A stretch of DNA of 14,825 nucleotides from Gemmatimonadota bacterium (lineage in GTDB: Bacteria > Gemmatimonadota > Gemmatimonadetes > Longimicrobiales > RSA9). The stretch spans positions 1-14,825 of the forward strand of contig JBBDRO010000114.1 of NCBI GenBank assembly GCA_040905425.1, in the 5' to 3' direction. The position numbers and the translations under genes were made by a program. The notes under the pieces are model-generated. The model was not told the DNA's origin. It worked only from the letters and a program-made list of their open reading frames with translations, and did no database searches. This document shows, piece by piece, positions 1 to 14,500 of the stretch. Position 1 is the first letter of the stretch. Each line of letters starts with the position of its first letter.

Positions 1-19
1 CACGCCGGCAACAAGGCCC

Positions 20-48
20 TTGCGTGCGGCGCATCACCCCCTTAGACT
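20..48 (+). promoter_or_regulatory. Putative sigma70-type promoter for the lipoprotein/TPR-HD-GYP operon
   Basis: TTGCGT (20-25), 17-bp spacer, TAGACT (43-48). Implies a TSS near 55 and a leader of about 180 nt. Confidence 0.5.
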
Positions 49-235
49 AGTCACCTGCGCCCTGCCCGGCGCGCCGACTCCCCGCGGCTCCGGGCGTTCG
101 TGTGCGCAAAAAAAATGCAACGCGACGGACTCTGGAGATTCCTGCGAGGATCTCCACAGCCGCACCCGCCGGCCCCGGGAGCTGCCCTCCCACCGGGGTG
201 GTCCGTACGCGTAAGACCCGATTCAGGAGAACACC

Positions 236-829
236 ATGCTGCATCGTCGCGCTTCTTATGCCGCCCTGGCGGTAGTACTCGCCTTCTCCATGTCGAGCTG
301 CGACAGCGCCGACATCCTGCAGCCCACCGACGCCGCGCCCCAGTTCAACCAGGGGAACGGTAACGGCAATGGCGTAAACAACGCGCCGGGGCAGCAGAGG
401 CAGCTCTGGGATGCTCTGGCCGACATCACCGCCTATGAGGTTGATGAGGATCATGCCTATATCGACCGCTCAGGTGGTAGCCTGGCGGCGGCCACCTCGG
501 CTGACGAACCTACCTATGCCTTCTCGCTCGTAGTCCCGAGGAACGCCGTCCGCACCTCGACTCTCTTCACGATGGGCGTGGAGGATGTCGATGACGTTGT
601 CAGTGTGGAACTGACGGCGGACGATGGGCAGGACATCGGTTCCAGAGACTTCAACCGACCGGTGACACTCTGCCTCAATCTCACCCTCGCGGATGAGACC
701 GGCACGCTCGGGCTGGAGTTCGAAGGCAGGGAGATCCCCACCTACCAGTTCACCAATCCCGAGGACGATAACGATTACCTCTGCGCCAATCTGACGCACT
801 TCTCCCGCTTCATCATCATCCATAACTAA
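236..829 (+). CDS. Predicted lipoprotein (197 aa) with a ZU5-like beta-rich domain and a C-terminal HFS motif
   Basis: SD-like AGGAG just upstream. Basic N-terminus, hydrophobic stretch and lipobox-like SMSS-C. NQGNGNGNGVNN linker, then an acidic beta-rich region (IDRSGGSL...LVVPRNAV...RPVTLCL...LTHFSRF) resembling ZU5-type domains. Confidence 0.75.
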   Translation: MLHRRASYAALAVVLAFSMSSCDSADILQPTDAAPQFNQGNGNGNGVNNAPGQQRQLWDALADITAYEVDEDHAYIDRSGGSLAAATSADEPTYAFSLVVPRNAVRTSTLFTMGVEDVDDVVSVELTADDGQDIGSRDFNRPVTLCLNLTLADETGTLGLEFEGREIPTYQFTNPEDDNDYLCANLTHFSRFIIIHN

Positions 830-832
830 CGG

Positions 833-2452
833 ATGAAAGCCGCGCAGATCTCCTCGACGCCCGGGCAGCTCGATCCGCCCGCCGATCTCAGCGAACTCGA
901 CGCCCTCGTCGAGCGGGCGCGGAGCGCACACACGAGCGGCGAGTGGACGCAGGCGCTGGAGCTCTACGAGGAGGCGTACCAACGCGCCATCCACGAAGGG
1001 GACGCGGCGGACATCGCGCGTCTGCTGCGCTGGAGCGGTCAGGTCCATGCCGAGCGCGGCGAGCCCGAACTGGCGGAGGAGCTCTACGACGCCAGCCTGG
1101 CCATCGCGGAGGCCAATCGCCTGGACAAGGACATCGTCAACGTGCTGTCCAGCCGCGCGGCGCTGGAGCAGTTCGGCGGCCAGCCGGACCGGGCCGAGCT
1201 GCTCTACAACCGTGCCCGCACGCTGGCCGCCCATCTGGGTGACGATCGGCTGGCGGCCTCGGTGGACCAGAACATGGGCGTGCTGGCCAATATGCGCGGG
1301 GACATGGCCTCCGCCCTGGTCAGCTACACCTCCGCCCTCCTCTGCTACCGCCGCCTGGGTGACGACCGCGCCGCCACGGCCGCCCTGAACAACATGGGCA
1401 TGGCGCATCTGGACCTGGAGGACGTGGAGGCCGCGGAGGCCTGCTTCAACCAGGCCTTCGAACTGGCCAGCACCACGCGGGACATGTTCACGCTGGCCTC
1501 CGTGCAGCTCAACAAGGCGGAGCTCTTCCTGCGTCGCCAGCAGTACGAGCAGGCGCGCGAGTGCTGTGACGAGGGCTTCGGCATCTTCACGAACATCGAG
1601 TCCAAGCTGGGACTGGCCGACGCCTACAAGTTCTACGGCGTCCTTTACCGCGAGACCGGCAAGCCCCATCTGGCCGACATCCACCTGGGTCTGGCCTGGA
1701 ACCTGGCCAACGGCTCCGGTGATCGTCTCCTGCAGGCCGAGGTCAAGCACGAGCTGGCCCGCGTCCACCTCGACGAGAGCCGTAGCCTGGACGCCATCCG
1801 CTCGCTGAACCAGGCGCACGCCCTCTATCACGAGGTGCAGGCGCGCCGCGAGATCCTGGACATCGAGCACCAGATCGACGAGCTGGAAGACACCTACCTG
1901 CGCGTCGTGCGGCACTGGGGCACCGAGACCATCGAGACCAAGGACCCCTACACGCTGGGCCACTCCGAGCGCGTGGCGGACTATACGTGCAAGCTGGCCG
2001 AGGCGGTCGGCGTGGGCGGGCGCGATCTCACCTGGCTCCGCATGGGCGCCTTCCTGCACGACGTGGGCAAGACGGTGGTGCCCGCCTCCGTGCTCGTGAA
2101 GCCCGGCGTGCTGAACGAGAGCGAGTGGCACCTCATGAAGAAGCACACTCTCGTGGGGGACGAGATCGTGGGCGGGCTCGACCTCCCCTATAACGTGCGC
2201 CCCATGGTACGGGGCCACCACGAGCGCTGGGATGGCCACGGCTATCCCGATCGCCTGGCGGGCACGGACATCCCCCTGACCGCGCGCATCCTGGCCGTGG
2301 CGGATGTCTTCGACGCGCTCACCACCGCCCGCAGCTACCGCCACCCCTTCTCCAAGCACGAAGCGCAGCGCATCCTCCGCCACCAGGCCGGCCGCGCGCT
2401 CGACCCTGAGCTGGTGGACGCCTTCGAAGACGTGGTGGCCCTGACCGGCTGA
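833..2452 (+). CDS. Tetratricopeptide-repeat protein with a C-terminal HD-GYP cyclic-dinucleotide phosphodiesterase domain (539 aa)
   Basis: About 40-aa helical repeats (e.g. AASVDQNMGVLANMRGD, ATAALNNMGMAHLDLED), then intact HD-GYP motifs ETKDPYTLGHSERVA, LHDVGK, HHERWDGHGYP and AVADVFDALTTARSYR. Starts 3 bp after the previous stop. Confidence 0.93.
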   Translation: MKAAQISSTPGQLDPPADLSELDALVERARSAHTSGEWTQALELYEEAYQRAIHEGDAADIARLLRWSGQVHAERGEPELAEELYDASLAIAEANRLDKDIVNVLSSRAALEQFGGQPDRAELLYNRARTLAAHLGDDRLAASVDQNMGVLANMRGDMASALVSYTSALLCYRRLGDDRAATAALNNMGMAHLDLEDVEAAEACFNQAFELASTTRDMFTLASVQLNKAELFLRRQQYEQARECCDEGFGIFTNIESKLGLADAYKFYGVLYRETGKPHLADIHLGLAWNLANGSGDRLLQAEVKHELARVHLDESRSLDAIRSLNQAHALYHEVQARREILDIEHQIDELEDTYLRVVRHWGTETIETKDPYTLGHSERVADYTCKLAEAVGVGGRDLTWLRMGAFLHDVGKTVVPASVLVKPGVLNESEWHLMKKHTLVGDEIVGGLDLPYNVRPMVRGHHERWDGHGYPDRLAGTDIPLTARILAVADVFDALTTARSYRHPFSKHEAQRILRHQAGRALDPELVDAFEDVVALTG

Positions 2453-2633: not shown

Positions 2634-2639
2634 GTGCGC

Positions 2640-3983
2640 ATGGCCATCATATGTCTGGAAGCGCCCGCCTGGCGGCGCGCCCCCGGTCCCGACCCCGCTC
2701 CCGGTCCCGATCCCGCCCTGCAGGCGCCGCTCCTGGCGCTGGCGCCGCGCGTGGCGCTGGAGGTCCGGGGTGCGCTCTGGGCGGACGGGCGGGGGCTGGA
2801 CGCCGCGGCGCTGGCCAGCCGGCTCCTGGCGCGGCTGGGGGAGCTGGGGGTGCGGGAAGCACGGGCCGGGGTGGCGGACACGCCCGTGGCCGCGCGGGCC
2901 GCGGCGCGCACGGCGGGGGCGGGGGTGCGCGTGGTGCCGCCGGGCACGGACCGCGCCTTCCTGGCGCCGCTGCCGCTGGTGGTCCTGGACATCGACGAGC
3001 CGCTGCTGCTCCTGCTGGACGGCGTGGGCGTGGCCACGTGCGGAGCGCTGGCGGCGGTGCCGCGGGAGGCGGTGGAGGTGCGCTTCGGCGGGGCCGCGGT
3101 GACGCCGTGGCGCCGCGCCCGCGCTGATGATGCGCGCCGCCTCTTCGCCGCCCCGCTCCCCGTGCAGCCGCACGCGTCCATGGACTTCGTGGACTACGTG
3201 GTGACGGATCCCGAGCGGCTGGTGTTCACCGCCAACGCGCTGCTCGGGCGGCTCCTGGAGGGGCTGGCCGGGCGGGGCGAGCACGCCCGTGCCCTCACGC
3301 TTTCCCTCCCCCTGGCCAACGGCCAGACGTGGCGCCGCACGCTGCGTGCGGCCCGGCCCACGGCCAGCCGGGAGCTGTGGCTGCGCCGCCTGCGGGACGT
3401 CCTGGACCGGCTCACCGTGGATGACGCGGTGGCGGGGATGGCCCTGCGCGTGGAGGGCGCCGAGGCGGCCGGCTCCGTGCAGGGGGACCTGTTCGACCCG
3501 GGCTTTGCCTCGGCGGGGGCGGCGGAGGCGGCGGTGGCCCGCCTGCTGGACACGGGCACGGCCGTGGTGGAGGCCCGGCCGGGGCGGCATCCGCTCGCGG
3601 AGCGCCGCACGGTGTGGCAGCCCGTGGCGCCGGAGGTGGTGCGCGAGCGCCCGTGCTCCGCCGGGGCGGGGCAACCCGCCGCGGTGGCCAGCGCCGCGGC
3701 GGAGGCGGCGGGCGCCCTCACCCTGCAGCTCCTGCCCGAGCCCCGCCCGGTGAGGGTGGAGACGGTGGCGCGCCGGGATCATCAGCGCCCGCTACGCTAC
3801 CATGACGGCCGCTGGCACCAGCTGGAGACGGTGGCGGGCCCCGAGCGGGTCTCGGGGGGCGTGTGGGAGGAGGAGGCCTACGCCCGGGAGTACTTCCGGG
3901 CCGTGACCGGCCAGGGCGCGCTGGTGTGGCTCTTCCGGGACGCCGTGCGGGACCGCTGGTTCCTGCACGGCTGGTGGGACTAG
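2640..3983 (+). CDS. imuB: ImuB-like catalytically inactive Y-family DNA polymerase (mutasome accessory subunit)
   Basis: Y-family-like segments (ARAGVADTPVAARAAAR, FLAPLPLVVL, LDGVGVATCGALAAVPREAVEVRFG), beta-clamp motif QGDLF (3480-3494), and the typical ImuB C-terminus GPERVSGGVW...AREYFR...GALVWLFRD...RWFLHGWWD. Start is ATG 2640 or GTG 2634. Confidence 0.88.
   Translation: MAIICLEAPAWRRAPGPDPAPGPDPALQAPLLALAPRVALEVRGALWADGRGLDAAALASRLLARLGELGVREARAGVADTPVAARAAARTAGAGVRVVPPGTDRAFLAPLPLVVLDIDEPLLLLLDGVGVATCGALAAVPREAVEVRFGGAAVTPWRRARADDARRLFAAPLPVQPHASMDFVDYVVTDPERLVFTANALLGRLLEGLAGRGEHARALTLSLPLANGQTWRRTLRAARPTASRELWLRRLRDVLDRLTVDDAVAGMALRVEGAEAAGSVQGDLFDPGFASAGAAEAAVARLLDTGTAVVEARPGRHPLAERRTVWQPVAPEVVRERPCSAGAGQPAAVASAAAEAAGALTLQLLPEPRPVRVETVARRDHQRPLRYHDGRWHQLETVAGPERVSGGVWEEEAYAREYFRAVTGQGALVWLFRDAVRDRWFLHGWWD
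2682..2717 (+). repeat. Tandem 18-bp repeat encoding (PGPDPA)2 in the ImuB N-terminus
   Basis: CCCGGTCCCGACCCCGCT / CCCGGTCCCGATCCCGCC. Confidence 0.7.
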
Positions 3984-5350
3984 TCGCTGGCCACCCAGAC
4001 CGTCTTGACGTTCACGAACTCCCGGATCCCGAACGCGGACAGCTCGCGGCCGTAGCCCGAGCGCTTCACCCCGCCGAAGGGCAGCCGCGGGTCGGAGGCC
4101 ACCATGCCGTTGATGAAGACGGCCCCCGCCTCCAGGGCGTCCATGAAGCGCTCCTGCTCGGCGGGCTCGCGGGTCCAGGCCGCCGCCCCCAGTCCGAAGG
4201 AGGTGGCGTTGGCCACGCGCAGCGCCTCCTCCACGTCCGCCACGCGGAAGAGCGCCGCCACCGGGCCGAAGAGCTCTTCCTCCCATGCCGGCGAACCCTC
4301 GGCCACGTCCGTGAGCACGGTGGGCGGATAGAAATTGCCGGGCCCCTCCAGCGGCTCACCACCCGTGAGCACGCGGGCGCCGGCGGCCACGGAGCGGCGC
4401 ACCTGGTCGTGCAGCTCCTCGCGGATGGCCGCGGTGGCCAGCGGCCCCACGTCCGTGGCGTCGTCCATGGGGTCGCCCACCGTGAGGCCCGCCATGCGCG
4501 CCACGAACAGGCGCTCGAACTCCGCGGCCACGTCCGCGTGCACGATGAAGCGCTTGGCCGCGATGCACGACTGCCCGTTGTTGATGGTGCGCGCCTTCAC
4601 CGCCGTTTCGGCGGCCACCTCCAGGTCCGCGCTCGGCATCACCACGAAGGCGTCGCTGCCGCCCAGCTCGAGCACGGTGGGCTTGATGTGCCTGCCGGCC
4701 GCCGCGCCCACGGCGCTGCCGGCGCCCTCGCTGCCCGTGAGCGTGGCGGCGCGCACGCGCGGGTCGGCCAGGATGCCCTCCACCGGGCCGCTGCCGATGA
4801 GCAGCGTCTGGAAGGCGTCCGGGGTCACGCCCGCGCGCCGGAAGATGTCCTCGATGGCCAGCGCGCACTGCGGCACGTTGGAGGCGTGCTTGAGGAGCCC
4901 CACGTTGCCGGCCATGAGCGCCGGCGCCGCGAAGCGGAAGACCTGCCAGTAGGGGAAGTTCCAGGGCATGACGGCCAGCACCGGGCCGAGCGGCTGGTAG
5001 CGGATGAAGCTACGCGCAGCGCCCGTGGCCACCGGCTCGTCGGCCAGCTGCGCCGGGGCGTGCTCCGCGTAGTAGCGGCACACCCAGGCGCACTTCTCCG
5101 CCTCCGCCACGGCGGCCCCGAGTGGCTTGCCCATCTCCAGCGTCATGGTGCGGCCCAGCTCCGCCTTCTCCGCCTCCAGGATCTCCGCCGCCCGCAGGAG
5201 CCAGCCCGCCCGCTCGGCGAAGGACGTGGCGCGGTGGCGCTCGAAGGCCGTCCAGGCCCGCGCCAGGCGCGCCTCGAGTTCCTGGCTGGAGAGCGCTTCG
5301 AAGGTGCGGAGGGTCTCCCCGGTAGCGGGGTTCACGCTGGCTATGGCCAT
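3980..5350 (-). CDS. gabD: NAD(P)-dependent succinate-semialdehyde dehydrogenase-like aldehyde dehydrogenase (456 aa)
   Basis: MAIASVNPATGE start with AGGA SD. Motifs MPWNFP, LLKHAS, LTGSEGAG, LELGGSD, NNGQSC (catalytic Cys), EELFGP and PFGGVKRSGYGREL. The track's 5449 start overlaps the upstream gene, so 5350 is preferred. Its stop overlaps the imuB stop (CTAG). Confidence 0.9.
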   Translation of the reverse strand: MAIASVNPATGETLRTFEALSSQELEARLARAWTAFERHRATSFAERAGWLLRAAEILEAEKAELGRTMTLEMGKPLGAAVAEAEKCAWVCRYYAEHAPAQLADEPVATGAARSFIRYQPLGPVLAVMPWNFPYWQVFRFAAPALMAGNVGLLKHASNVPQCALAIEDIFRRAGVTPDAFQTLLIGSGPVEGILADPRVRAATLTGSEGAGSAVGAAAGRHIKPTVLELGGSDAFVVMPSADLEVAAETAVKARTINNGQSCIAAKRFIVHADVAAEFERLFVARMAGLTVGDPMDDATDVGPLATAAIREELHDQVRRSVAAGARVLTGGEPLEGPGNFYPPTVLTDVAEGSPAWEEELFGPVAALFRVADVEEALRVANATSFGLGAAAWTREPAEQERFMDALEAGAVFINGMVASDPRLPFGGVKRSGYGRELSAFGIREFVNVKTVWVASD

Positions 5351-5354
5351 GGTC

Positions 5355-6116
5355 CTAACGGATGCGGGTGAAGCTGGTGCCCGCCGCGGGATTGGTGCCG
5401 CGGAGGATGCGCAGGTCGCCGTCCACGATGAGGTGGCCCTGGCTACCACCCACGCTCAGGATCACCGAATCCGGCGCGGCCCAGACCACCGTGCCCAGAA
5501 AGGTGGTGCCGGCCCCGCGCAGCAGGAAGATGGGCACCTGCACCGAATCCCCGCCCAGGACCCGCGCGCGCCGCAGCACCTGCTCCATGAGCCCCACCGA
5601 CGGGCTGAGGTAGGGGATGGCGCCGTGGTCGGTGCCCACCCGCGATTCGGTGGTCACGCCGCCCTGCCGCGCCGTGCCGATCAGGCTGTCCCCGCGGAAG
5701 CTGCCGCGCGCCACCTCGGCGGGTTCGGCGTTGGCGGGGGCGCCCGCCGGCCAGCCGCGGAGCTCCACGCTCTGCACGCGCGCGTCAGCGGTCAGCTCCG
5801 CGCGATAGGCGGTGCGCGGTCCCCCGGGCGAGCGCAGCTCGCCGGTGAGCATGCCCGCCTCCCGGGCAAAGTGCTCGAAGCCCATGGTGTCCACGGCGCC
5901 GCCGGCGCCGTGGCGCAGGAACACGAAGGTGCGCGGGGAGGGGTCGGCCACCGCGGGGAGGGTGCCGGGCGTCGTCGCTTCAGAAGAAGGTTCGGAGGAA
6001 CCGGACAGTGCGGCTGTATCCGCGCGGGCGGCGGCCGATTCCCGGGGCGGGGGCGCGTCCCCGCCGCACGCCGTGACCAGGCAGGCGGCCAGCGAGAGCA
6101 GTGCGGTGCGCATCAT
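5355..6116 (-). CDS. Hypothetical lipoprotein (about 253 aa)
   Basis: MMRTALLSLAACLVTA-C lipobox, Pro/Ser/Ala-rich tether, then a beta-rich domain. Ends 4 bp before the ALDH start, so probably an operon. The true start lies inside the 5355..6602 track ORF. Confidence 0.75.
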   Translation of the reverse strand: MMRTALLSLAACLVTACGGDAPPPRESAAARADTAALSGSSEPSSEATTPGTLPAVADPSPRTFVFLRHGAGGAVDTMGFEHFAREAGMLTGELRSPGGPRTAYRAELTADARVQSVELRGWPAGAPANAEPAEVARGSFRGDSLIGTARQGGVTTESRVGTDHGAIPYLSPSVGLMEQVLRRARVLGGDSVQVPIFLLRGAGTTFLGTVVWAAPDSVILSVGGSQGHLIVDGDLRILRGTNPAAGTSFTRIR

Positions 6117-6255
6117 GGATCCAGGATAGAGGGAGCGGCCCGCCGGCGACAGACCGCCCCGCGGAAACTCCGGCGGGCCTCCACGCGTAAGAGGAAACAT
6201 GGTCGGCGCCGCCCGGCGCCGTTGCGCAGCTCGATCACGACCCGGAGAGCCAACC

Positions 6256-7956
6256 ATGCGCCTGCTCATCTGTCTGCTCGCCGCCGTCCTGGCCGCCCCG
6301 CTCCAGGCACAGGAGCTGGATCCCTGGCGGGACGGCCTGCCATCCGCCACCGCCGAACGCATCGAGGCGCTGCTCGCCGATCCGGCCACCGTGCGCTTCC
6401 ACGGCAACGCCACCGTGCCCGCGGAGCAGGTCGTGGACGGCGCCGTGGTGGCCGAAGGGGGCGTGCTCCGCGTGACCGGCACCGTGCGCGGCCAGCTGGT
6501 CACCCTGGGCGCGGAGCTGGTGCTCGAGCCGGGCGCCCGTGTGCTGGGTGACGTGTTGGTGGTGGACGGCGTCCTGCGCGGGGAGGAGGATGCCGAGATC
6601 ACGGGCTCCGTGACCGTCTACGGCCCGTCCGACAACTGGACGCGCGTGCGCGGTATGCACGGCTCCGCGGACCGCTGGGACGACTACGATGGCCGCCTCC
6701 GTAGCCGGCGGGGGGACGCGGATTTCCGGGTGGAGGTGGCGGGCAACTACAACCGCGTGGAAGGGCTGCCGGTAGCCTTCGGGCCCGACATCCGCACCGG
6801 CGGCCGCCTGCCCATGCGTATCGAGGCGCTGGCCATCTGGCGCACGGACGCTGGCCCGCTCACCAACGCCGAGCGCATGGGCTACCTGGCCCGCGCGGAG
6901 CAGTTCCTGCCCGGCGGCGCGCTCCGCCTGGGTGCCAGCCTGCGCTCCACGGTGGGGCCCATCGAGGCGTGGAGCGTCACGGACGTGGAGGCGTCGCTGG
7001 CCACCGCCGTGCTGCATGAGGACCAGCGGGACTATTTCGAGCGGGAGGGCTGGAGCGCCTATGCGCGGCTGGCGCCCCGGGGCTCCCCGCTGGACGCGGT
7101 CGTGGAGTACCGGGACGAGCGCCATGGCTCGCTGGCCGCGCGCGACCCGTGGACGCTGTTCTCCGGCGGCAGCGCGTGGCGGCTGCAGCCGCTCGTGGGG
7201 GAGGGGCGGATCCGCTCGCTGCACGGGACCTTGAGCCTGGATGGGGTGCGCGGCTGGGACTTCGGCCGGCGGGGATGGTATGCGGCGGCCACGCTCGAGC
7301 ACGTGCTGGACGGGCAGCTCACCGTCCCGCCGCTGGCCCCGCTGCCGGGCACCCCCGGCGAGATCCAACTCGGGCCCGCGTTCGACGCGGGCTACACCAC
7401 GGCGCTCCTCGACCTGCGGCGCTACCAGTACGCCGGCCGCGGTGGCATCCTGGGCCTGCGCGTGGTGGCGGGCGGTGGCCTGGAGAAGGCGCCGCTGCCG
7501 CCGCAGTTCCAGCACGCGCTGGGCGGGGCGGGCTCGCTCCCGGGCTACAGCTTCTTCTCGGCGGATTGCGGCGCGCGCGCCCTTGTGGGAACGCGCGGTG
7601 ACGGGCCCGGCGAAGCACGCTTCCACCCCGCCTACGGGTGCGACCGCTTCGGCCTGGTACAGGCGGAGTATCGCGGCGGCTTCGACCTCCACTTCGGCGG
7701 CCGGGACCACCGGGAGGGCAGGGCGCGCGGTTGGCGCCACCATGACTTCGACGTGGACGTGGACTGGACCGTCTTCTTCGACGCGGGCCGGGGCTACGCC
7801 TACGCGGCCGACGGCCGCACCGCCGGGGACACGGGCACGCTCTACGACGTGGGCGCGGGCATCGTGCTCGGGGACGTGGGTATCTACGGCGCCGCGCCGC
7901 TCACGGGCACCGACCGGGATCTGCGCTTCTTCGTGCGGCTGGGGCCGCGCTTCTGA
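6256..7956 (+). CDS. Omp85/BamA-TamA-like outer-membrane beta-barrel protein with an N-terminal bactofilin-like (polymer-forming cytoskeletal) domain (566 aa)
   Basis: GGAGAG SD and signal peptide MRLLICLLAAVLAAPLQA-Q. V/G-rich beta-helix-like repeats (VDGAVVAEGGVLRVTGTVRGQLVTLG...VLGDVLVVDG), YNRVEGL motif, L6-like LGGAGSLPGY, VFFDAGRGY, and C-terminal beta-signal RFFVRLGPRF ending in Phe. Confidence 0.75.
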   Translation: MRLLICLLAAVLAAPLQAQELDPWRDGLPSATAERIEALLADPATVRFHGNATVPAEQVVDGAVVAEGGVLRVTGTVRGQLVTLGAELVLEPGARVLGDVLVVDGVLRGEEDAEITGSVTVYGPSDNWTRVRGMHGSADRWDDYDGRLRSRRGDADFRVEVAGNYNRVEGLPVAFGPDIRTGGRLPMRIEALAIWRTDAGPLTNAERMGYLARAEQFLPGGALRLGASLRSTVGPIEAWSVTDVEASLATAVLHEDQRDYFEREGWSAYARLAPRGSPLDAVVEYRDERHGSLAARDPWTLFSGGSAWRLQPLVGEGRIRSLHGTLSLDGVRGWDFGRRGWYAAATLEHVLDGQLTVPPLAPLPGTPGEIQLGPAFDAGYTTALLDLRRYQYAGRGGILGLRVVAGGGLEKAPLPPQFQHALGGAGSLPGYSFFSADCGARALVGTRGDGPGEARFHPAYGCDRFGLVQAEYRGGFDLHFGGRDHREGRARGWRHHDFDVDVDWTVFFDAGRGYAYAADGRTAGDTGTLYDVGAGIVLGDVGIYGAAPLTGTDRDLRFFVRLGPRF

Positions 7957-7960
7957 CGGC

Positions 7961-8000
7961 CGCGGGGGGGGGGGGGGGCCCGCCGCCCCCTCCCGCCCTC
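7961..8000. terminator. GC-rich hairpin between convergent genes (G15 tract pairing with a C-rich arm)
   Basis: G run 7964-7978 followed by CCCGCCGCCCCCTCCCGCCCTC, between stops at 7956 and 8001. No U-tract. Confidence 0.4.
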
Positions 8001-8207
8001 CTACCCGCCCGTACCGGGCACGGTGATCTCGATGTTCACCTCGTCGGGCACCCCGCTGTCCCCCGCGCTGTCGCGCAGGAAGACCGCCCAGACAAGGATC
8101 ACCACCACGATCAGTACGAGCAGTCCCACGATCCATCCCGTGCTGCTGTTGCCGCCGCCGCCGCTCACCGGAGGTGGCTCCTGGTGTACGTGAACCTCGT
8201 CGTCCAT
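8001..8207 (-). CDS. Small single-pass membrane protein (68 aa)
   Basis: Strong SD GGTGAGG before the ATG at 8207. Transmembrane helix WIVGLLVLIVVVILVWAVFL and C-terminal VPDEVNIEITVP. Confidence 0.8.
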   Translation of the reverse strand: MDDEVHVHQEPPPVSGGGGNSSTGWIVGLLVLIVVVILVWAVFLRDSAGDSGVPDEVNIEITVPGTGG

Positions 8208-11232: not shown

Positions 11233-11382
11233 GGCGTCTTCCTCCGTCGGGGGTTCGTTGGCGGTGCAGTGTGCTCGGCGGGGAAGGGAGCCGCAAGAAG
11301 GGGGCGAGGGGGCCGCATGGTCAGCGGACCGCCGCCACCACCGCGTCCACCCGCCCCGCCACCGGCCGAGCGGCGTCCAGCG

Positions 11383-11416
11383 CCGGCTTGACTTCGGTTT
11401 TTATTCGGGTCATTCT
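11383..11416 (+). promoter_or_regulatory. dnaE2 promoter with candidate operator TTCGG-N6-TTCGG
   Basis: -35 TTGACT (11388-11393), 17 bp, -10-like CATTCT (11411-11416). TTCGG at 11393-11397 and 11404-11408. Matches the imuB upstream element. Confidence 0.7.
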
Positions 11417-11437
11417 TCCGTGTCCACCGGCCCTTGT

Positions 11438-11453
11438 AAGCGACGTCCCCGCG
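11438..11453 (+). repeat. Dispersed 16-bp repeat, copy 2 (dnaE2 5' leader)
   Basis: Exact AAGCGACGTCCCCGCG. Similarity to copy 3 extends over 11431-11464. Confidence 0.85.
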
Positions 11454-11512
11454 CCGCTCACCGGGCGCCTCCATCCACACTCGTCCACGCATCGTCCGAG
11501 GAAGAATCACCT

Positions 11513-14500
11513 GTGCCAGCCTTCGTCGAACTTCGCGCCCACTCCTGTTTCTCCTTCGGGGATGGCAGCGCCTCCCCGCAGGCGCTGGTCCGCCGCGCCG
11601 CGGAACTGGGCTATCCGGCGCTGGGGCTCACGGACAGCGCGGACCTGGGCGGCGCCATCCGCTTCACCCTGGAGGCCAACCAGGCGGGCATCAAGCCCAT
11701 CGTGGGCGCCGAGCTGCTGGTGGACGGCCATCCCACCGCCTTCCTGGCCCGCAACGCCGCCGGCTACCGCAACCTGGCCGCGCTGGTGACCCGGGCGCGG
11801 GTGGGGGATCTGCGGCGCTGGGAGGAGGGCGGTGGGGGAGAGGACGGGCAGCATACCAGTGGAATCCCATCCACTGACGGCCACGATAATACGTACATAC
11901 AGTCAGATGGGGAGAGACGCCGGATTCCGGCGGGCTGGGGTGAGCCTGTCTCGCTGACCCGGCCGGGCTCCGGCGGGGGGCGCTCCGGCGCCGGCCGCGC
12001 CGCCGCTTCCCCCGGCCTCCCGCCGCACGGCTCCCAGCCCCCCGCCCCCCGCACGCGCGACCTGCGCCGCCCCCGCGGACAGCCCGGCCTCACCTTCGAG
12101 GATCTCACCGTGCACGCGGAGGGGCTCTGGTGCCTCACCGGCCCGGCCACGGGGGAGATTGCCACCTATCTGCGCACCGGCCGCGCCGCGGACGCCGTCT
12201 ACCAGCTGGAGCGCTGGCGTGACCTCTTCGGCAGCAAGCTGGCCGTGGAGGTGCAGCTCCATCATGCCGGCGGCCACGAGGCGGCGCTGGCCGCCGAGCT
12301 GATCCAGCTGGCCGAGCGGAGCGGCCTGCCGTGGGTGGTGGCCAACGACCCGCGCTACCTGGACGGCGCCGGCCGCCTGGTGCATGACCTCCTGGTGGCC
12401 AACCGGGCCGATGTGACCGTGGACACGGCGGCCTCCTGGGGGTTGCTGCTGCCCAACGGCGAGTGGCGGCTCAAGTCCCCGCGGGAGATGGCGGTGCTGT
12501 GGCAGGGCAGGGAGCGCGGGTTGGAGGCCGCGGCCGCCGTCGCTTCCGACTGTGGCGCCTTCGACCTGCGCTGGCTGCGGCCCCCCATGCCCCGCTTCCA
12601 GGTCCCCGAGGGAGAGACGGACCACACGCACATGCGCGCCCTCACGTACGCGGGCGCGCGCGAGCGGTGGGGGGAGCTGGACGCCCGCCAGGAGGCGCAG
12701 CTGGAGCACGAGTTGGGCGTCATCGGCCGGCTGGGCTTCGACGGCTTCTTCCTGGTCATGTATGACGCCATACGTTTCGCTCGTGAGCGGGGGATCCTCT
12801 GCCAGGGGCGGGGCAGCGCCGCCAATTCAGCCGTGGCCTACTGCCTGGGCATCACGGCGGTGGACCCCGTGCGCCATGGCCTCCTCTTCGAGCGCTTCCT
12901 CTCCGAGGTGCGCACCGACGGCATGACCGAGGCGCCCGACATCGACGTGGACTTCGAGATGCACCGTCGCGAGGAGGTGCTCGACTACATGTATTCCCGT
13001 TATGACCGCTCGCAGGCGGCCATCACGGCGGTGCACCAGGAGTACCACGCCCCGAGCGCGCTGCAGGACTGCATGCGGGCGCTCGGCTATCAAGCGGAAC
13101 AGGCGTTTGCATTGTCCAAACGGATCCACGGCCTGGCGCCCAGTGAGGGTGCCGCCCGCCTGCGCGAGGGGCTGGCCGAGGCCCAGGGGCTGGACCTCAC
13201 CGAGCCGCGCGCCCGCGCCCTGCTGGCGGCGCTCGAGGGCCTGGACGACGTGGTGCGCATGCGCTCCACGCACCCCGGCGGCTTTGTCCTCTCGGACGGC
13301 CCGCTGGGCGCGTGGATGCCCATCGAGCACACCACCATGGGGCGCACCATCCTGCAGTTCGACAAGGATGACCTGGACGCCGCCGGCGTGCCCAAGTTCG
13401 ACTTCCTGGGACTCGGCGGCCTCTCCGCCGTGCACCTGGCCTTCGACGCCATCGAGCGCCGCACGGGAGAGTACAAAGAATTGTACAATATTCCCGTAGA
13501 TGACGCTGCCACCTACGATCTCATCCAGCGCGGGGAGACGGTGGGCACCTTCCAGATCGAGAGCCGCGCCCAGATCCAGTCCATCCTGCAGACGGAGCCC
13601 ACCCGCCTCTACGACATCGTGGTGCAGGTGGCGCTCATCCGCCCCGGCCCCATCCAGGCCCGCTTCGTCCACCCCTACACCGAGCGCCGCCTGGGTCGCG
13701 CGGAGGTCCACTACGAGGACCCCCGCCTGGAGCCCATCCTGCGCCGCACCTACGGCGTGCCCATCTTCCAGGAGCAGGCCATGGCCATCTCCATGGCGCT
13801 GGGCGGCTTCAGCGCCGCCGAGGCCGACGAACTGCGGCGCGCCATGGGCCACAAGCGCAAGCTTCCCCGATTGCACGCTGCGCTGGAGAATCTTCGGCTA
13901 CACATGGAGGCGAACGGCGTAAACGCCTCTGTAGCCGAACAAATAGTGGAGGATCTTCACTCTTTTGCCAACTACGGCTTCCCCGAATCGCACGCCTGGA
14001 GCTTTGCCCTCATCGCCTACGCCACGGCCTATCTGAAGGCCAACTACCCCGCGGAGTTCTACCTGGGGTTGCTGAACGCCTGGCCCATGGGCTTCTACCC
14101 GCCCGCCACGCTCGTGCACGACGCCCGCCGCCATGGGGTGAACGTCCTGGGGCCGTGCCTCAAGGTGGGCGCCTGGGACTGCACCATCGAACCCCTTCCA
14201 AGCGACGTCCCCGCGGCCGCCTCACCGGAGACACCGAGCGTGCGCGGCCTGGCTGAGCACCAGATCGCGCTCCGCGTGGGCTGGCGCCACATCCGCGGCC
14301 TGGGCGAGCGGGCGCGGCAGGCGCTGCAGGAGGCGCACGCGGCCGGGCCCTTTGCCAGTATCCAGGACGTGGTGCGCCGGGCCGGCCTGCAGCGGGCCGA
14401 AGCCCTCCACCTGGCGCGCGCCGGCGCCTTCGAGGCCTTTGCCCCCGGCCGCCGCAAGGCCGCCTGGGAGGCCCTCCGCGCCGCCGGCGACCTGCTGCCG

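What the first reader, a model, noticed from the sequence alone, without database searches (positions are those of the whole stretch)
236..2452. Candidate autoproteolytic-peptide / TPR-HD-GYP signalling module (HF/S cleavage would release SRFIIIHN)
Seen: a lipoprotein ending ...YLCANLTHFSRFIIIHN-stop (HFS at 797-805), 3 bp upstream of a soluble-looking protein with long TPR repeats fused to an intact HD-GYP domain. Established: HF/S is the autoproteolysis site of Nup98 and of PIDD1. The GPS of adhesion-GPCR GAIN domains (H-L/T-x-F followed by hydrophobic residues) exposes a short hydrophobic Stachel peptide. RRNPP quorum-sensing receptors are TPR proteins that bind short peptides cut from an exported precursor encoded next door. 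HD-GYP domains hydrolyse c-di-GMP or related cyclic dinucleotides. Inference: the lipoprotein self-cleaves and holds or releases an 8-residue peptide that, after import, binds the TPR domain and tunes the phosphodiesterase. This would be a peptide or mechanical-cue pathway to c-di-GMP in a diderm, which I do not recognise as described.
Basis: partly seen in the sequence, partly recalled or inferred. Interest (0 to 1): 0.85.

Follow-up and report, generated by a model that had tools for sequence, protein, structure and literature searches.

The report
ZU5 lipoprotein paired with TPR phosphodiesterase
A small exported lipoprotein built like the self-cutting ZU5 domains of animal cell-death proteins sits, throughout the phylum Gemmatimonadota, directly in front of a cytoplasmic enzyme that breaks down a bacterial second messenger, which points to an undescribed envelope-to-cytoplasm signalling pair.

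Summary
Gene 236-829 encodes a 197-aa lipoprotein ending ...THFSRFIIIHN. Three bases later, gene 833-2452 encodes 8 TPRs fused to an intact HD-GYP domain.

The lipoprotein has no Pfam or NCBIfam hit. Its AlphaFold model matches ZU5 domains best and then GAIN domains. HFS lies in the turn before the last strand.

In 33 aligned relatives, F is present in 33/33, H in 32/33, S in 32/33 and an aromatic two residues later in 33/33. Mean column identity is only 30%.

A family-specific TPR motif fetched 20 Gemmatimonadota loci. In 17 of them a ZU5-like lipoprotein gene lies directly upstream on the same strand, in at least six different flanking contexts.

Self-cleavage is likely but untested. That the freed octapeptide is the TPR ligand remains speculative. 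Support is limited to a weak co-fold pass (ipSAE 0.52, best control 0.00), subclade-fixed tails, and an OppA-like gene in 2 of 20 loci. The TPR resembles LGN/Pins, not RRNPP receptors.

Bacterial ZU5 autopeptidases were predicted in 2012. I found this stand-alone lipoprotein and this pairing in no paper. Verdict: a real, conserved, undescribed module with its mechanism open.

The parts
225..229 (+). Shine-Dalgarno-like AGGAG, 6 nt before the lipoprotein start codon
   Evidence: Read directly from the sequence.
236..829 (+). Gene for the 197-aa ZU5-like lipoprotein (P0001), stop codon included
   Evidence: ORF and translation. Relatives found, with alignments.
236..301 (+). Lipoprotein signal peptide up to the lipidated Cys22 (codon 299-301)
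   Evidence: Sequence pattern. Cys22 is invariant in 33/33 relatives.
302..439 (+). Low-confidence linker (residues 23-68), Gly/Asn/Gln-rich, with a PQF motif present in most relatives
   Evidence: pLDDT is below 50 for residues 23-29 and 38-49. PQF is in the consensus of A1 and A4.
440..829 (+). ZU5-superfamily beta-sandwich domain (residues ~69-197)
   Evidence: Ten-residue block mean pLDDT is 82-96 from residue 71. Foldseek matches ZU5 and GAIN domains. Atlas structural hits cover residues 69-197. 6 of 33 family members give weak PF00791 hits, best E 0.0017.
797..805 (+). H188-F189-S190, the predicted autoproteolysis triad; the scissile bond would be F189|S190
   Evidence: F 33/33, H 32/33 and S 32/33. 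The triad lies in the 4-residue turn between the last two modelled strands, 179-186 and 191-196. The roles of F and S in PIDD, Nup98 and CARD8 are given in PMC3210808 (passages read).
803..826 (+). Tail SRFIIIHN (S190-N197), the last beta strand and the would-be cleavage product
   Evidence: Sequence; strand 191-196. Exactly 7 residues follow the Ser in 21 of 33 relatives.
833..2452 (+). Gene for the 539-aa cytoplasmic TPR-HD-GYP protein (P0002), stop codon included
   Evidence: ORF, translation and domains. About 100 orthologue clusters at 42-96% identity, those named by a source being Gemmatimonadota or Longimicrobiales.
893..1846 (+). Eight TPR motifs (residues 21-338, 16 helices)
   Evidence: AlphaFold model at pLDDT 91.6. 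Foldseek matches LGN/Pins TPR-peptide complexes at TM 0.69-0.77 by target. Asn147, Asn187, Asn227 and Asn326 are nearly invariant.
1853..1942 (+). Long linker helix (residues 341-370) joining the TPR region to the catalytic domain
   Evidence: Secondary structure of the model.
1928..2413 (+). HD-GYP domain (residues 366-527), metal-binding and GYP residues present
   Evidence: Pfam HD_5 at E 1e-34. D410, H438, H462, H463, E464, G470 and P472 are invariant in 47 orthologues. PDB relatives are V-cGAP3 5z7c (E 1.4e-67), PmGH 4mcw and PA4781 4r8z, plus DvhD 9rbz.

Best explanation
This is a conserved two-gene module of Gemmatimonadota.

Gene 1 makes an exported lipoprotein, lipidated at Cys22. A flexible linker of about 45 residues carries a ZU5-superfamily beta sandwich. 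The turn before the last strand holds the family's most conserved motif, H-F-S-x-aromatic. This is the same triad, in the same place, as the self-cleavage site of PIDD1, and close to the SF/S of NLRP1 and CARD8 and the GPS of GAIN domains.

Inferred: the protein cuts itself between F189 and S190 by an N-to-O acyl shift. S190 would be the nucleophile, H188 the base, and buried F189 would strain the backbone. The octapeptide SRFIIIHN would stay bound non-covalently as the last strand.

Gene 2, 3 nt downstream with no ribosome-binding site of its own, is probably translationally coupled. It makes a cytoplasmic enzyme with eight LGN/Pins-like TPRs, a linker helix and a catalytically intact HD-GYP domain. 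That domain hydrolyses c-di-GMP or 3'3'-cGAMP; which one cannot be told from sequence.

Inferred from conserved adjacency: the two act in one pathway.

The leading specific, unproven model for the coupling is that the TPR groove reads the C-terminal tail of the lipoprotein. The tail would be freed when the ZU5 core is unfolded or degraded, then taken up, and would set phosphodiesterase activity.

My odds by step:
- ZU5 superfamily: 0.9
- functional link of the two genes: 0.85
- self-cleavage: 0.65
- tail as TPR ligand: about 0.25
For: Fold:
- The AlphaFold2 model has pLDDT 78 overall, with 86 residues at 90 or above.
- Foldseek ranks ZU5 domains first: 4d8o at E 8.8e-5, and 3f59/3kbu at TM 0.55-0.57 by target. 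GAIN domains follow.
- The Atlas's own model matches a PIDD1 cluster at TM 0.53. One look-alike Gemmatimonadota cluster carries PF00791 on 50% of its members.
- 6 of 33 family members hit PF00791 weakly.

Motif:
- F 33/33, H 32/33, S 32/33 and an aromatic at +2 in 33/33, at 30% mean identity.
- The two exceptions are SFS (the CARD8/NLRP1 form) and HFT (Thr is the nucleophile in GAIN domains; the latter is recalled).
- HFS sits in the turn between strands 179-186 and 191-196.
- PMC3210808 (passages read) says the buried Phe and the Ser are essential, and that the motif lies on a loop just before a long strand.

Linkage:
- A ZU5-like ORF lies directly upstream on the same strand in 17 of 20 Gemmatimonadota loci, plus the window.
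- Of the other three loci, one contig ends inside the TPR gene, one has an N-terminally truncated TPR gene, and one keeps a 44-codon remnant.
- The flanks differ: WIN/L018/L024, L010/L012, L003, L005, L007, L009 and a 12-locus block. Only the pair is shared by all.
- Copy numbers tend to rise together: L009 has 2+2, and L012 has 1 plus a mini-lipoprotein with 2.

Tail as ligand:
- Co-fold of TPR 1-350 with lipoprotein residues 160-197 gave 'weak support': ipSAE 0.52 (runs 0.52, 0.55, 0.46), best of 3 controls 0.00.
- That mark was reached by 116 of 157 solved complexes and 2 of 215 mismatches. At 0.60 or under, only 18 of the 157 reached it, as did both mismatches that passed.
- The runs share at least 45% of contacts, and partner pLDDT was at least 38. 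My own alignments were used, so these counts hold only roughly.
- Tails are identical within subclades whose cores are 44-63% identical.
- The TPR resembles LGN/Pins, which hold extended peptides in the groove.
- An OppA/DppA-type binding-protein gene follows the module in L010 and L012.
Against: - No experiment exists. Cleavage is inferred from motif and fold only.
- Apart from H188, no further conserved polar residue is seen that could assist catalysis. CARD8 needs extra His and Glu residues.
- Sequence similarity to ZU5 is marginal. P0001 itself has no Pfam hit at E up to 1, and the family profile finds ankyrin ZU5 only at E 0.34.
- The tail is modelled as an integral strand, so release needs unfolding or degradation.
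- The lipoprotein is exported and the TPR protein is cytoplasmic. No transporter lies in the window, and an OppA-like gene is linked in only 2 of 20 loci.
- In the group-B loci checked (L002, L006, L008, L014, L015, L016, L019, L020, L023) a strong GC hairpin, in about half followed by a T-rich run, lies between the two genes at gaps of about 60-100 nt. Co-transcription is therefore not assured there.
- No RRNPP receptor is among the 50 listed fold matches of the TPR protein.
- The co-fold pass is of the weak class. By the tool's own text, such passes are more often wrong than right unless the pairing was likely beforehand. It used 30 extra residues that would not be in the free peptide, and no contacts were reported.
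- 8 of 33 tails have 11-25 residues after the Ser.
- L024 and L010 keep TPR-HD-GYP genes without a full-length lipoprotein.
- Reverse linkage could not be tested. The loci were chosen through the TPR gene, so I do not know whether family members also occur away from TPR-HD-GYP genes.
Confidence: 0.5

Rival explanations
1. The lipoprotein, cleaved or not, works only in the envelope, for example as a binding or adhesion module on the periplasmic or outer face. It is linked to the phosphodiesterase by co-expression, or through an unlinked membrane partner. The TPR domain would then bind some other cytoplasmic protein or peptide, and the tail is just the last strand of the fold.
For: - The two proteins are in different compartments: a signal peptide with invariant Cys on one and none on P0002.
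- The tail is an integral strand in the model.
- In the group-B loci checked (L002, L006, L008, L014, L015, L016, L019, L020, L023) a terminator-like GC hairpin separates the genes.
- The ZU5 core evolves faster than the enzyme in 183 of 190 locus pairs, as exposed envelope proteins often do.
- Zhang et al. 2012 proposed ZU5 processing as a general feature of bacterial surface proteins (PMC3482391, passages read).
- L024 and L010 keep the enzyme without a full lipoprotein.
Against: - It does not explain why a self-cleavage triad is kept 7 residues from the C-terminus in 21 of 33 members, where nothing but one strand would be detached.
- It does not explain why the pair, and only the pair, is kept across at least six flanking contexts.
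- It does not explain the weak co-fold pass: ipSAE 0.52 against a best control of 0.00 among 3 controls. The mark was reached by 116 of 157 solved complexes and 2 of 215 mismatches, but at 0.60 or under by only 18 of the 157. The runs share at least 45% of contacts and partner pLDDT was at least 38.
Confidence: 0.3
2. The TPR domain binds the free C-terminus of the not-yet-exported precursor in the cytoplasm, in the way Hop binds EEVD or PEX5 binds PTS1 (both recalled). The enzyme would then report a backlog in lipoprotein export or maturation, and no peptide import is needed.
For: - The genes are 3 nt apart and probably translationally coupled in the window, so both products appear together in the cytoplasm.
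- The co-fold piece that scored was a C-terminal 38-mer, not the cut peptide. ipSAE was 0.52 against a best control of 0.00 among 3 controls. The mark was reached by 116 of 157 solved complexes and 2 of 215 mismatches, but at 0.60 or under by only 18 of the 157. The runs share at least 45% of contacts and partner pLDDT was at least 38.
- The TPR is of the extended-peptide-binding LGN/Pins kind.
Against: - It gives no role to the conserved H and S of the triad.
- No precedent was found in my literature searches.
- In the group-B loci checked (L002, L006, L008, L014, L015, L016, L019, L020, L023) the genes are separated by GC hairpins.
Confidence: 0.07
3. The adjacency is inherited gene order without a functional link.
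For: - 12 of the 20 loci belong to one block with conserved flanks on both sides, so those count as one event.
- All loci come from a single phylum.
Against: - The other loci (L003, L005, L007, L009, L010/L012, and the window with L018 and L024) share no flanking genes with that block. Most share none with each other, yet they keep the pair in the same order and strand.
- TPR identity across these loci falls to 42-50%.
Confidence: 0.07

Closest known systems
Autoproteolytic ZU5 domains of PIDD1 (HF/S) and of the FIIND of NLRP1 and CARD8 (SF/S)
   Same: - The fold class is the same.
- The triad has a buried Phe and a Ser nucleophile on the turn just before a long strand (PMC3210808).
- The family even shows the SFS variant once (P0005).
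   Different: - Those are cytosolic animal proteins in which a whole UPA-CARD or death-domain fragment follows the cut. Here only one strand of 6-9 residues follows in 25 of 33 members, and 11-25 residues in the other 8.
- This protein is an exported bacterial lipoprotein.
- Sequence similarity is marginal.
GAIN domain of adhesion GPCRs with its GPS and Stachel
   Same: - The cut sits before the last beta strand, which stays bound and can act as a tethered or hidden peptide signal.
- GAIN domains are among the fold matches: 4dlo at E 3.8e-3, plus 8vy2, 8oek, 5kvm and 9mqr.
   Different: - There is no helical subdomain A.
- There is no Cys-rich GPS with HL/T.
- No 7TM follows.
- ZU5 domains match better than GAIN domains.
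Bacterial ZU5-superfamily autopeptidase domains predicted in polymorphic toxins and large surface proteins (Zhang et al. 2012, PMC3482391; passages read)
   Same: The domain superfamily is the same, in exported bacterial proteins, with predicted self-processing.
   Different: - Those sit at the N-terminus of very large RHS or adhesin proteins and release large cargo.
- This is a 170-200-aa stand-alone lipoprotein with no cargo domain and a conserved cytoplasmic signalling neighbour.
- None of the passages I read mentions such a form. The paper's Additional File 1 was not looked at.
RRNPP peptide quorum-sensing systems (Rap/Phr, NprR, PlcR/PapR, PrgX)
   Same: - A TPR protein is encoded next to a gene for an exported precursor whose C-terminal few residues could be the signal. 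That C-terminal origin of Phr and PapR peptides is recalled, not from a call.
- Opp-type uptake would be needed, and an OppA-like gene follows the module in 2 of 20 loci.
   Different: - The organism is a diderm phylum.
- The precursor is a folded 197-aa lipoprotein rather than a 40-60-aa pro-peptide.
- Release would be by self-cleavage.
- The output is an HD-GYP enzyme rather than an HTH domain or a phosphatase.
- The TPR fold matches LGN/Pins, and no RRNPP receptor is among the 50 listed matches.
HD-GYP phosphodiesterases PmGH (4mcw), PA4781 (4r8z), DvhD (9rbz) and the cGAMP-specific V-cGAP3 (5z7c)
   Same: The catalytic domain matches at E 1.4e-67 to 2e-41 with all conserved metal ligands present.
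   Different: - The sensor domain is an 8-repeat TPR, not one of the other N-terminal sensor domains those enzymes carry.
- The best sequence match is a cGAMP-specific enzyme, so the substrate is open.
LGN/Pins TPR domains
   Same: Both are an 8-repeat TPR superhelix, at TM 0.69-0.77 by target. LGN/Pins is solved with extended peptides in the concave groove. Asn residues recur at 40-residue spacing, at positions 147, 187 and 227.
   Different: LGN/Pins are eukaryotic polarity proteins, identity is only 16-18%, and they have no enzymatic output domain.

Membership tests
ZU5 superfamily (ZU5 / GPS-GAIN / Nup98 autopeptidase, sensu Zhang et al. 2012) | ZU5-type beta-sandwich fold | tested here: met
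   Foldseek places ZU5 domains at the top (E 8.8e-5; TM 0.55-0.57 by target for single ZU5 domains), followed by GAIN domains. The Atlas model gives a PIDD1 cluster at TM 0.53. Both sides of these comparisons rest on a predicted model (pLDDT 78).
ZU5 superfamily (ZU5 / GPS-GAIN / Nup98 autopeptidase, sensu Zhang et al. 2012) | Significant match to the Pfam ZU5 model PF00791 | tested here: not met
   P0001 has no hit at E up to 1. 6 of 33 relatives hit weakly, best E 0.0017, below the curated cut-off. The family profile against PDB finds ankyrin-1 ZU5 only at E 0.34. Membership therefore rests on fold and motif, not on sequence statistics.
Autoproteolytic ZU5 subgroup (PIDD1, UNC5CL, NLRP1, CARD8) | H/S-F-S triad on the turn before the last long strand | tested here: met
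   F 33/33, H 32/33 (one S) and S 32/33 (one T). The triad lies in the turn between strands 179-186 and 191-196. Residue roles are from PMC3210808.
Autoproteolytic ZU5 subgroup (PIDD1, UNC5CL, NLRP1, CARD8) | Cleavage actually occurs and depends on the Ser | not testable with these tools
   This needs intact-mass spectrometry of wild type against S190A.
Autoproteolytic ZU5 subgroup (PIDD1, UNC5CL, NLRP1, CARD8) | A folded domain (UPA, death domain or CARD) follows the cut | tested here: not met
   The protein ends 7 residues after the Ser. 25 of 33 relatives end within 6-9 residues, and the rest carry 11-25 residues, in several of them Pro-rich.
GAIN domain | Helical subdomain A, Cys-rich GPS with HL/T, and a following 7TM | tested here: not met
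   The model has no helical subdomain after the signal peptide. The sequence ends after the tail. GAIN domains rank below ZU5 domains.
Bacterial lipoprotein | Signal peptide ending in a lipobox with an invariant Cys | tested here: met
   Each of the 33 sequences has a basic n-region, a hydrophobic core and a small residue before the Cys, and Cys22 is invariant. This is by inspection; no LipoP or SignalP was available.
HD-GYP phosphodiesterase | HD_5 domain above the curated cut-off, with HD, HHE and GYP residues | tested here: met
   120.1 bits against a cut-off of 27.2. D410, H438, H462, H463, E464, G470 and P472 are invariant in 47 orthologues. Solved relatives are listed.
HD-GYP phosphodiesterase | Substrate (c-di-GMP or 3'3'-cGAMP) | not testable with these tools
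   The best PDB sequence match is the cGAMP-specific V-cGAP3 (E 1.4e-67), followed by c-di-GMP enzymes. An enzyme assay is needed.
RRNPP peptide-sensing receptors | TPR fold of the RRNPP type with an HTH or phosphatase output | tested here: not met
   No RRNPP structure is among the 50 listed Foldseek matches or the best 60 PDB sequence matches. The output is HD-GYP.
RRNPP peptide-sensing receptors | Adjacent gene for an exported precursor of a short peptide that the receptor binds after Opp import | tested here: inconclusive
   An adjacent exported precursor is present in 17 of 20 loci. For binding there is only a weak co-fold pass: ipSAE 0.52 against a best control of 0.00 among 3 controls. 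The mark was reached by 116 of 157 solved complexes and 2 of 215 mismatches, but at 0.60 or under by only 18 of the 157. The runs share at least 45% of contacts and partner pLDDT was at least 38. An OppA-like gene is linked in 2 of 20 loci.

The most novel reading that the evidence does not exclude
The lipoprotein is a caged pro-peptide. It cuts itself at HF|S in the periplasm but keeps the octapeptide locked in as its last strand. The peptide escapes only when the fast-evolving ZU5 core is unfolded or destroyed, for example by foreign or stress proteases. This is the 'functional degradation' logic of NLRP1. The peptide is then imported and binds the LGN-like groove of the TPR domain, switching the HD-GYP enzyme. 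That would be the first peptide-to-cyclic-dinucleotide pathway in a diderm bacterium, and a bacterial use of ZU5 self-cleavage as a tripwire.
Probability: 0.15. Interest if true: 0.9.

Novelty: new variant of a known kind. Interest (0 to 1): 0.68.

Why it matters
ZU5/GAIN-type self-cleavage is known as a signalling device of animals, in PIDD1, the NLRP1 and CARD8 inflammasomes and adhesion GPCRs. In bacteria it has only been predicted, as a way to release large toxins.

Here the same triad is kept 7 residues from the end of a small lipoprotein, so the only thing the cut can free is a short peptide. The gene is tied to a second-messenger phosphodiesterase across a whole phylum. That gives a small, directly testable system of two proteins and one synthetic peptide. 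It could answer two questions:
- whether bacterial ZU5 domains really self-cleave
- what a TPR-gated HD-GYP enzyme senses

If the peptide is the ligand, it would extend peptide signalling of the RRNPP type to diderms and to cyclic-dinucleotide control. If it is not, the module still names a new family of envelope proteins and a conserved partner for them in the poorly studied Gemmatimonadota.

Tried and rejected
- **Family libraries.** Pfam and NCBIfam gave nothing for P0001 at E up to 1.
- **Word-index protein search.** It found only 1 relative of P0001, and 8 proteins (6 beyond P0001 and that relative) with the A1 profile. The exhaustive search gave 19 hits including the query itself. Of these I dropped P0011, P0013, P0017 and P0019 as repeat proteins unrelated over most of their length. 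P0008 was kept apart.
- **The search for related loci.** With A3 it matched 57 stretches, none confirmed. I then scanned genome contigs with a degenerate DNA motif for a TPR stretch, KFYG..YRET, present in 51 of 97 orthologues. 6 of the 26 loci were chance matches in other phyla with no TPR-HD-GYP.
- **The listing of cluster members.** It was switched off. The contigs of P0003, P0012, P0016 and P0022-25 could not be inspected. Linkage of P0003 with P0026 and of P0016 with P0040 is inferred only from equal contig lengths.
- **RNA and promoter scans.** Rfam gave no credible match in the window, and no riboswitch lies upstream of the pair. The promoter and terminator scan of 1-2800 found nothing useful.
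- **Family profile against PDB.** No significant hit.
- **Memberships rejected.** GAIN and RRNPP membership were both considered and rejected (see the membership table).
- **Mini-ORFs of L010 and L012.** They could not be aligned at the DNA level, so their common origin is open.
- **ImuA idea.** I suspected the ORF at window 2-214 and the ORF upstream of the L024 TPR gene were ImuA-like. The two are not similar and neither hits a family, so the idea was dropped.
- **Co-folding the 8-mer.** This was not possible because the tool asks for chains of 30 residues or more. A 38-residue C-terminal piece was used instead.
- **Co-variation of tail and TPR groove.** Not attempted, because about 20 pairs in one phylogeny give no power.

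Full report
**Observation.** The window holds two closely spaced genes on the + strand.
- ORF 236-829 encodes 197 aa, preceded by AGGAG at 225-229.
- It starts with a lipoprotein-type signal peptide ending in Cys22 and ends ...YLCANLTHFSRFIIIHN. H188-F189-S190 are codons 797-805, and the stop is 827-829.
- Three bases later, ATG 833 opens a 539-aa ORF running to 2452.
- Pfam finds TPR_12 (E 5.5e-29, 4 stretches) and HD_5 (E 1e-34, residues 366-527) in it. The motifs FLHDVGK and HHERWDGHGYP are intact.
- NCBIfam's best hit is a family of HD-GYP response-regulator phosphodiesterases, far below its cut-off.
- There is no signal peptide or membrane segment. The AlphaFold model (pLDDT 91.6) shows residues 1-17 disordered, 16 helices forming 8 TPRs (21-338), a long linker helix (341-370) and the catalytic domain.

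**What the lipoprotein is.**
- P0001 has no Pfam or NCBIfam hit at E up to 1.
- The exhaustive search of 1.84 billion representatives found 19 proteins at E up to 0.001, counting the query itself. Fourteen of the hits are lipoproteins of 178-207 aa.
- The word-index search added the close relative P0003 (59% identity) and three more family members.
- An AlphaFold2 model from a 15-row alignment has pLDDT 78. Ten-residue block means run 82-96 from residue 71, and the linker 23-49 is disordered.
- Foldseek against the PDB ranks ZU5 domains first: ankyrin-B ZU5-ZU5-UPA 4d8o at E 8.8e-5, ankyrin-R ZU5 3f59/3kbu at TM 0.55-0.57 by target, plus UNC5b and ZO-1.
- GAIN domains of adhesion GPCRs follow: BAI3 4dlo, CELSR1, BAI2, GPR56 and CD97.
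- The ESM Atlas agrees independently. Its own model matches a PIDD1 cluster at TM 0.53. Among feature look-alikes, all Gemmatimonadota, one cluster carries PF00791 ZU5 on 50% of its members.
- At the sequence level the link is marginal. 6 of 33 family members hit PF00791, best E 0.0017. The family profile finds ankyrin-1 ZU5 only at E 0.34, over the GG.L...L.VP.GAV stretch.
- I therefore file the protein in the ZU5 superfamily on fold and motif, not on sequence statistics.

**The HFS motif.**
- I aligned 33 sequences: 17 database proteins and 16 translated from fetched loci.
- Rows dropped:
  - L003, which is the same protein as P0006
  - L016 and L021, near-duplicates of L013 and L020, both with HFS
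  - P0018, truncated
  - P0024, which ends HFSGYSPISD
- In this alignment the only invariant columns are the lipid-anchor Cys22 and F189.
- H188 is present in 32/33 (Ser in P0005), S190 in 32/33 (Thr in L005) and an aromatic at +2 in 33/33. Mean column identity is 30%.
- The two exceptions reproduce variants known to be active: SFS in CARD8 and NLRP1 (PMC3210808, passages read), and Thr in the GAIN HL/T site (recalled).
- In the model, HFS fills the 4-residue turn between the last two strands, 179-186 and 191-196.
- D'Osualdo et al. describe the same layout. The motif lies on a loop just before a long strand, the Phe is buried as an anchor that strains the backbone, the Ser is essential, and the residue at -2 is only mildly needed.
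- The tail after the Ser has exactly 7 residues in 21 of 33 sequences, 6 in 2, 9 in 2 and 11-25 in 8.
- A self-cleavage triad kept this close to the C-terminus can detach nothing but a short peptide. That is the oddest feature of the family.

**Linkage.**
- The TPR region of P0002 finds about 100 orthologue clusters (P0026-P0128) at 42-96% identity. Those named by a source are Longimicrobiales, Gemmatimonadota or Gemmatimonadetes.
- The search for related loci could not use the lipoprotein alignments and found nothing with the three closest sequences.
- I therefore scanned genome contigs for a DNA motif encoding KFYG..YRET, present in 51 of 97 orthologues.
- This gave 26 loci. 20 are Gemmatimonadota contigs with a TPR-HD-GYP gene. 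6 are chance matches in other phyla without one.
- An HMM of alignment A1, run on all six-frame ORFs, hit 20 ORFs, the window's own among them. All lie beside a TPR-HD-GYP gene on the same strand.
- 17 of the 20 loci, plus the window, have a lipoprotein gene immediately upstream.
- The three exceptions are informative:
  - In L022 the contig ends inside the TPR gene.
  - L024 has a TPR gene lacking the first ~114 codons and no lipoprotein.
  - L010 has a 44-codon ORF that keeps a signal peptide with lipobox Cys and, about 10 residues later, ...LRHFSGYAMAIG-stop.
- L009 has two lipoprotein genes followed by two TPR-HD-GYP genes.
- L012 has one full lipoprotein gene, a 67-codon mini-lipoprotein ORF and two TPR-HD-GYP genes.
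- L018 has a second lipoprotein gene downstream.

**Is the adjacency more than inherited order?**
- All-against-all BLAST of the flanks shows one block of 12 loci with conserved genes on both sides (L002, L006, L008, L013-16, L019-23).
- Outside that block:
  - The window, L018 and L024 share only the downstream genes.
  - L010 and L012 share flanks with each other.
  - L003, L005 and L007 share nothing with any locus except the pair.
- Pfam on 134 flanking six-frame ORFs from 7 of the 20 loci (L003, L005, L007, L009, L012, L016, L018) shows unrelated functions:
  - polysaccharide deacetylase and VIT-VWA
  - DUF1207 and galactose genes
  - SDR/CinA and an amidohydrolase
  - sigma-54 activators
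  - acyl-CoA dehydrogenase
  - cytochrome c and IspH
- The pair is thus the only unit kept across at least six contexts, while TPR identity falls to 42-50%. This argues for a functional link.
- The spacing varies:

| Locus | Gap between the two genes |
|---|---|
| Window | 3 nt |
| L003 | -4 nt |
| L005 | 11 nt |
| L018 | 15 nt |
| L007, L009 | 35-36 nt |
| Group-B loci checked (L002, L006, L008, L014, L015, L016, L019, L020, L023) | about 60-100 nt, with a strong GC hairpin, in about half followed by a T-rich run |

- Such a leaky-terminator layout would make the lipoprotein more abundant than the enzyme. It also means co-transcription is not assured in those loci.

**Rates.**
- The lipoprotein is less conserved than its neighbour in 183 of 190 locus pairs.
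- The window is an outlier. Against P0003/P0026 the enzyme is 97% identical but the lipoprotein only 63%. These two are inferred to share a contig only from equal contig length.
- The signal peptide, linker start and tail are identical there, while the ZU5 core is 44% identical.
- Tails are identical within subclades whose cores are 44-63% identical:
  - P0001 and P0003
  - the five GYGPTTDR sequences
  - L015 and L020
- Between subclades, tails are as diverged as the cores, 25% against 28%. This fits either a buried strand or discrete specificity classes, and it does not decide between them.

**The enzyme.**
- The catalytic domain matches the cGAMP-specific V-cGAP3 (5z7c, E 1.4e-67). It also matches the c-di-GMP enzymes PmGH (4mcw), PA4781 (4r8z) and DvhD (9rbz).
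- All conserved metal ligands are invariant in 47 orthologues.
- The substrate cannot be told from sequence.
- The TPR half matches LGN/Pins at TM 0.69-0.77 by target. LGN/Pins is solved with extended peptides in the concave groove.
- No RRNPP receptor is among the 50 listed matches.
- Asn147, Asn187 and Asn227, spaced 40 residues apart, and Asn326 are nearly invariant. This is consistent with a groove that binds a peptide backbone; that reading is recalled from LGN and RRNPP work, not tested here.

**Test of the central idea.**
- The 8-mer is below the co-fold tool's size limit. I therefore folded TPR 1-350 (47-row alignment) with lipoprotein residues 160-197 (33-row alignment).
- The verdict was weak support: ipSAE 0.52 (runs 0.52, 0.55, 0.46), best of 3 controls 0.00.
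- The mark was reached by 116 of 157 solved complexes and 2 of 215 mismatches. At 0.60 or under, only 18 of the 157 reached it, as did both mismatches that passed.
- The runs share at least 45% of contacts. Partner pLDDT was at least 38, so its fold is uncertain. My own alignments were used, so the counts hold only roughly. No contacts were given.
- By the tool's own text, such a pass is more often wrong than right unless the guess was likely beforehand. I raise the odds of tail-TPR binding from about 0.1 to about 0.25.
- One more hint: in L010 and L012, the loci with the mini-ORFs, an OppA/DppA/NikA-type substrate-binding protein gene directly follows the two enzyme genes on the same strand. 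It hits SBP_bac_5 at E 2e-70 and Opp4A at E 4e-42 and 4e-47, below the cut-off.
- That is 2 related loci of 20. No transporter gene is in the window.

**Literature.**
- Zhang et al. 2012 (PMC3482391; abstract and ZU5 passages read) unified ZU5, GPS and Nup98 domains as one autopeptidase superfamily. They predicted ZU5 domains at the N-terminus of RHS-type polymorphic toxins and in large surface proteins.
- Kaur et al. 2021 (PMC8195603; passages read) treat ZU5 as of bacterial origin.
- No paper linking a ZU5 lipoprotein or a peptide signal to an HD-GYP enzyme turned up in six searches:

| Search terms |
|---|
| ZU5, autoproteolysis, bacterial |
| HD-GYP, TPR, lipoprotein |
| RRNPP, HD-GYP |
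| GAIN domain, prokaryotic, autoproteolysis, ZU5 |
| Gemmatimonadetes, c-di-GMP, HD-GYP |
| ZU5, lipoprotein, periplasm |

- The supplement of Zhang et al. was not read and may list small ZU5 proteins.

**Verdict.**
HFS is conserved, and homologues are linked to TPR proteins.
- Cleavage, release, uptake, binding and regulation all remain open.
- I rate it a new variant of a known kind: a stand-alone, cargo-less ZU5 lipoprotein coupled to a TPR-gated HD-GYP enzyme. Interest is 0.68.
- The boldest reading still allowed is a caged self-cleaved pro-peptide that signals to cyclic-dinucleotide turnover in a diderm. I put it at about 0.15.

Noticed in passing
L010 (contig orientation +) 3514-3648: A 44-codon ORF upstream of two tandem TPR-HD-GYP genes. 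It keeps a lipoprotein signal peptide with lipobox Cys and, about 10 residues later, the family's C-terminal ...LRHFSGYAMAIG-stop, with the whole ZU5 core missing. It could be a decayed gene, or a minimal pro-peptide form.
   Followed up: partly
L012, between the ZU5 lipoprotein gene (5283-5837, - strand) and the first TPR-HD-GYP gene: A 67-codon ORF with its own AGGAG, signal peptide and lipobox, ending ...KKGRYAMGAN. It is tail-like but lacks HFS. It is not alignable at the DNA level with the L010 mini-ORF.
   Followed up: partly
L012:139-1758 (-) and L010:7031-8644 (+): An OppA/DppA/NikA-type periplasmic substrate-binding protein gene (SBP_bac_5) lies directly downstream of the two TPR-HD-GYP genes on the same strand. 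It is seen in these 2 related loci of 20.
   Followed up: partly
window 440-796 compared with P0003: The ZU5 core of the window's lipoprotein is only 44% identical to that of P0003, while the neighbouring enzymes are 97% identical and the signal peptide and tail are identical. This suggests very fast divergence or recombination of the core. That P0003 and P0026 are neighbours is inferred only from equal contig length.
   Followed up: partly
Group-B loci checked (L002, L006, L008, L014, L015, L016, L019, L020, L023), between the lipoprotein stop and the TPR start: Strong GC-rich hairpins (about -24 to -49 kcal/mol for the intergenic stretch), in about half followed by T-rich runs and looking like intrinsic terminators, separate the two genes. 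The window and its closer relatives have gaps of -4 to 36 nt instead.
   Followed up: partly
P0008 (532 aa): A secreted-looking protein with three tandem ZU5-like repeats, two ending DHFTNFAVLL and one THFSSYSII. The motif therefore also occurs in multi-domain forms outside the lipoprotein family. Its genomic context is unknown.
   Followed up: no
window 302-304 and the same column of alignment A4: The residue after the lipidated Cys is Asp or Glu in 23 of 24 sequences of the window's group, and Ser, Thr, Ala or Gly in the 9 group-B sequences (read). In E. coli, Asp at +2 retains lipoproteins in the inner membrane (recalled). Whether that rule holds in this phylum is unknown.
   Followed up: no
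window 338-346 (P35-Q36-F37): A PQF motif in the otherwise disordered linker is kept in most relatives of the window's group (consensus). Its role is unknown.
   Followed up: no
window 2634-3983 (+) and 11258-14824 (+): An ImuB-like Y-family polymerase gene (IMS_C, E 4.7e-5) lies directly downstream of the pair, as it does in L024 and L018. An error-prone DnaE2-type polymerase gene (NF004225, E 4.7e-295) lies 7 kb further on. Between them are a succinate-semialdehyde dehydrogenase, DUF1028 and pyruvate kinase genes.
   Followed up: partly
window 5127-8136, both strands: Long overlapping ORFs of 415-633 aa have no Pfam or NCBIfam hit. Which frame is coding was not resolved.
   Followed up: no
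L009 3634-8110 and L018 276-3094: L009 carries two lipoprotein genes followed by two TPR-HD-GYP genes. L018 carries lipoprotein, enzyme, then a second lipoprotein whose tail runs 15 residues past the Ser.
   Followed up: partly
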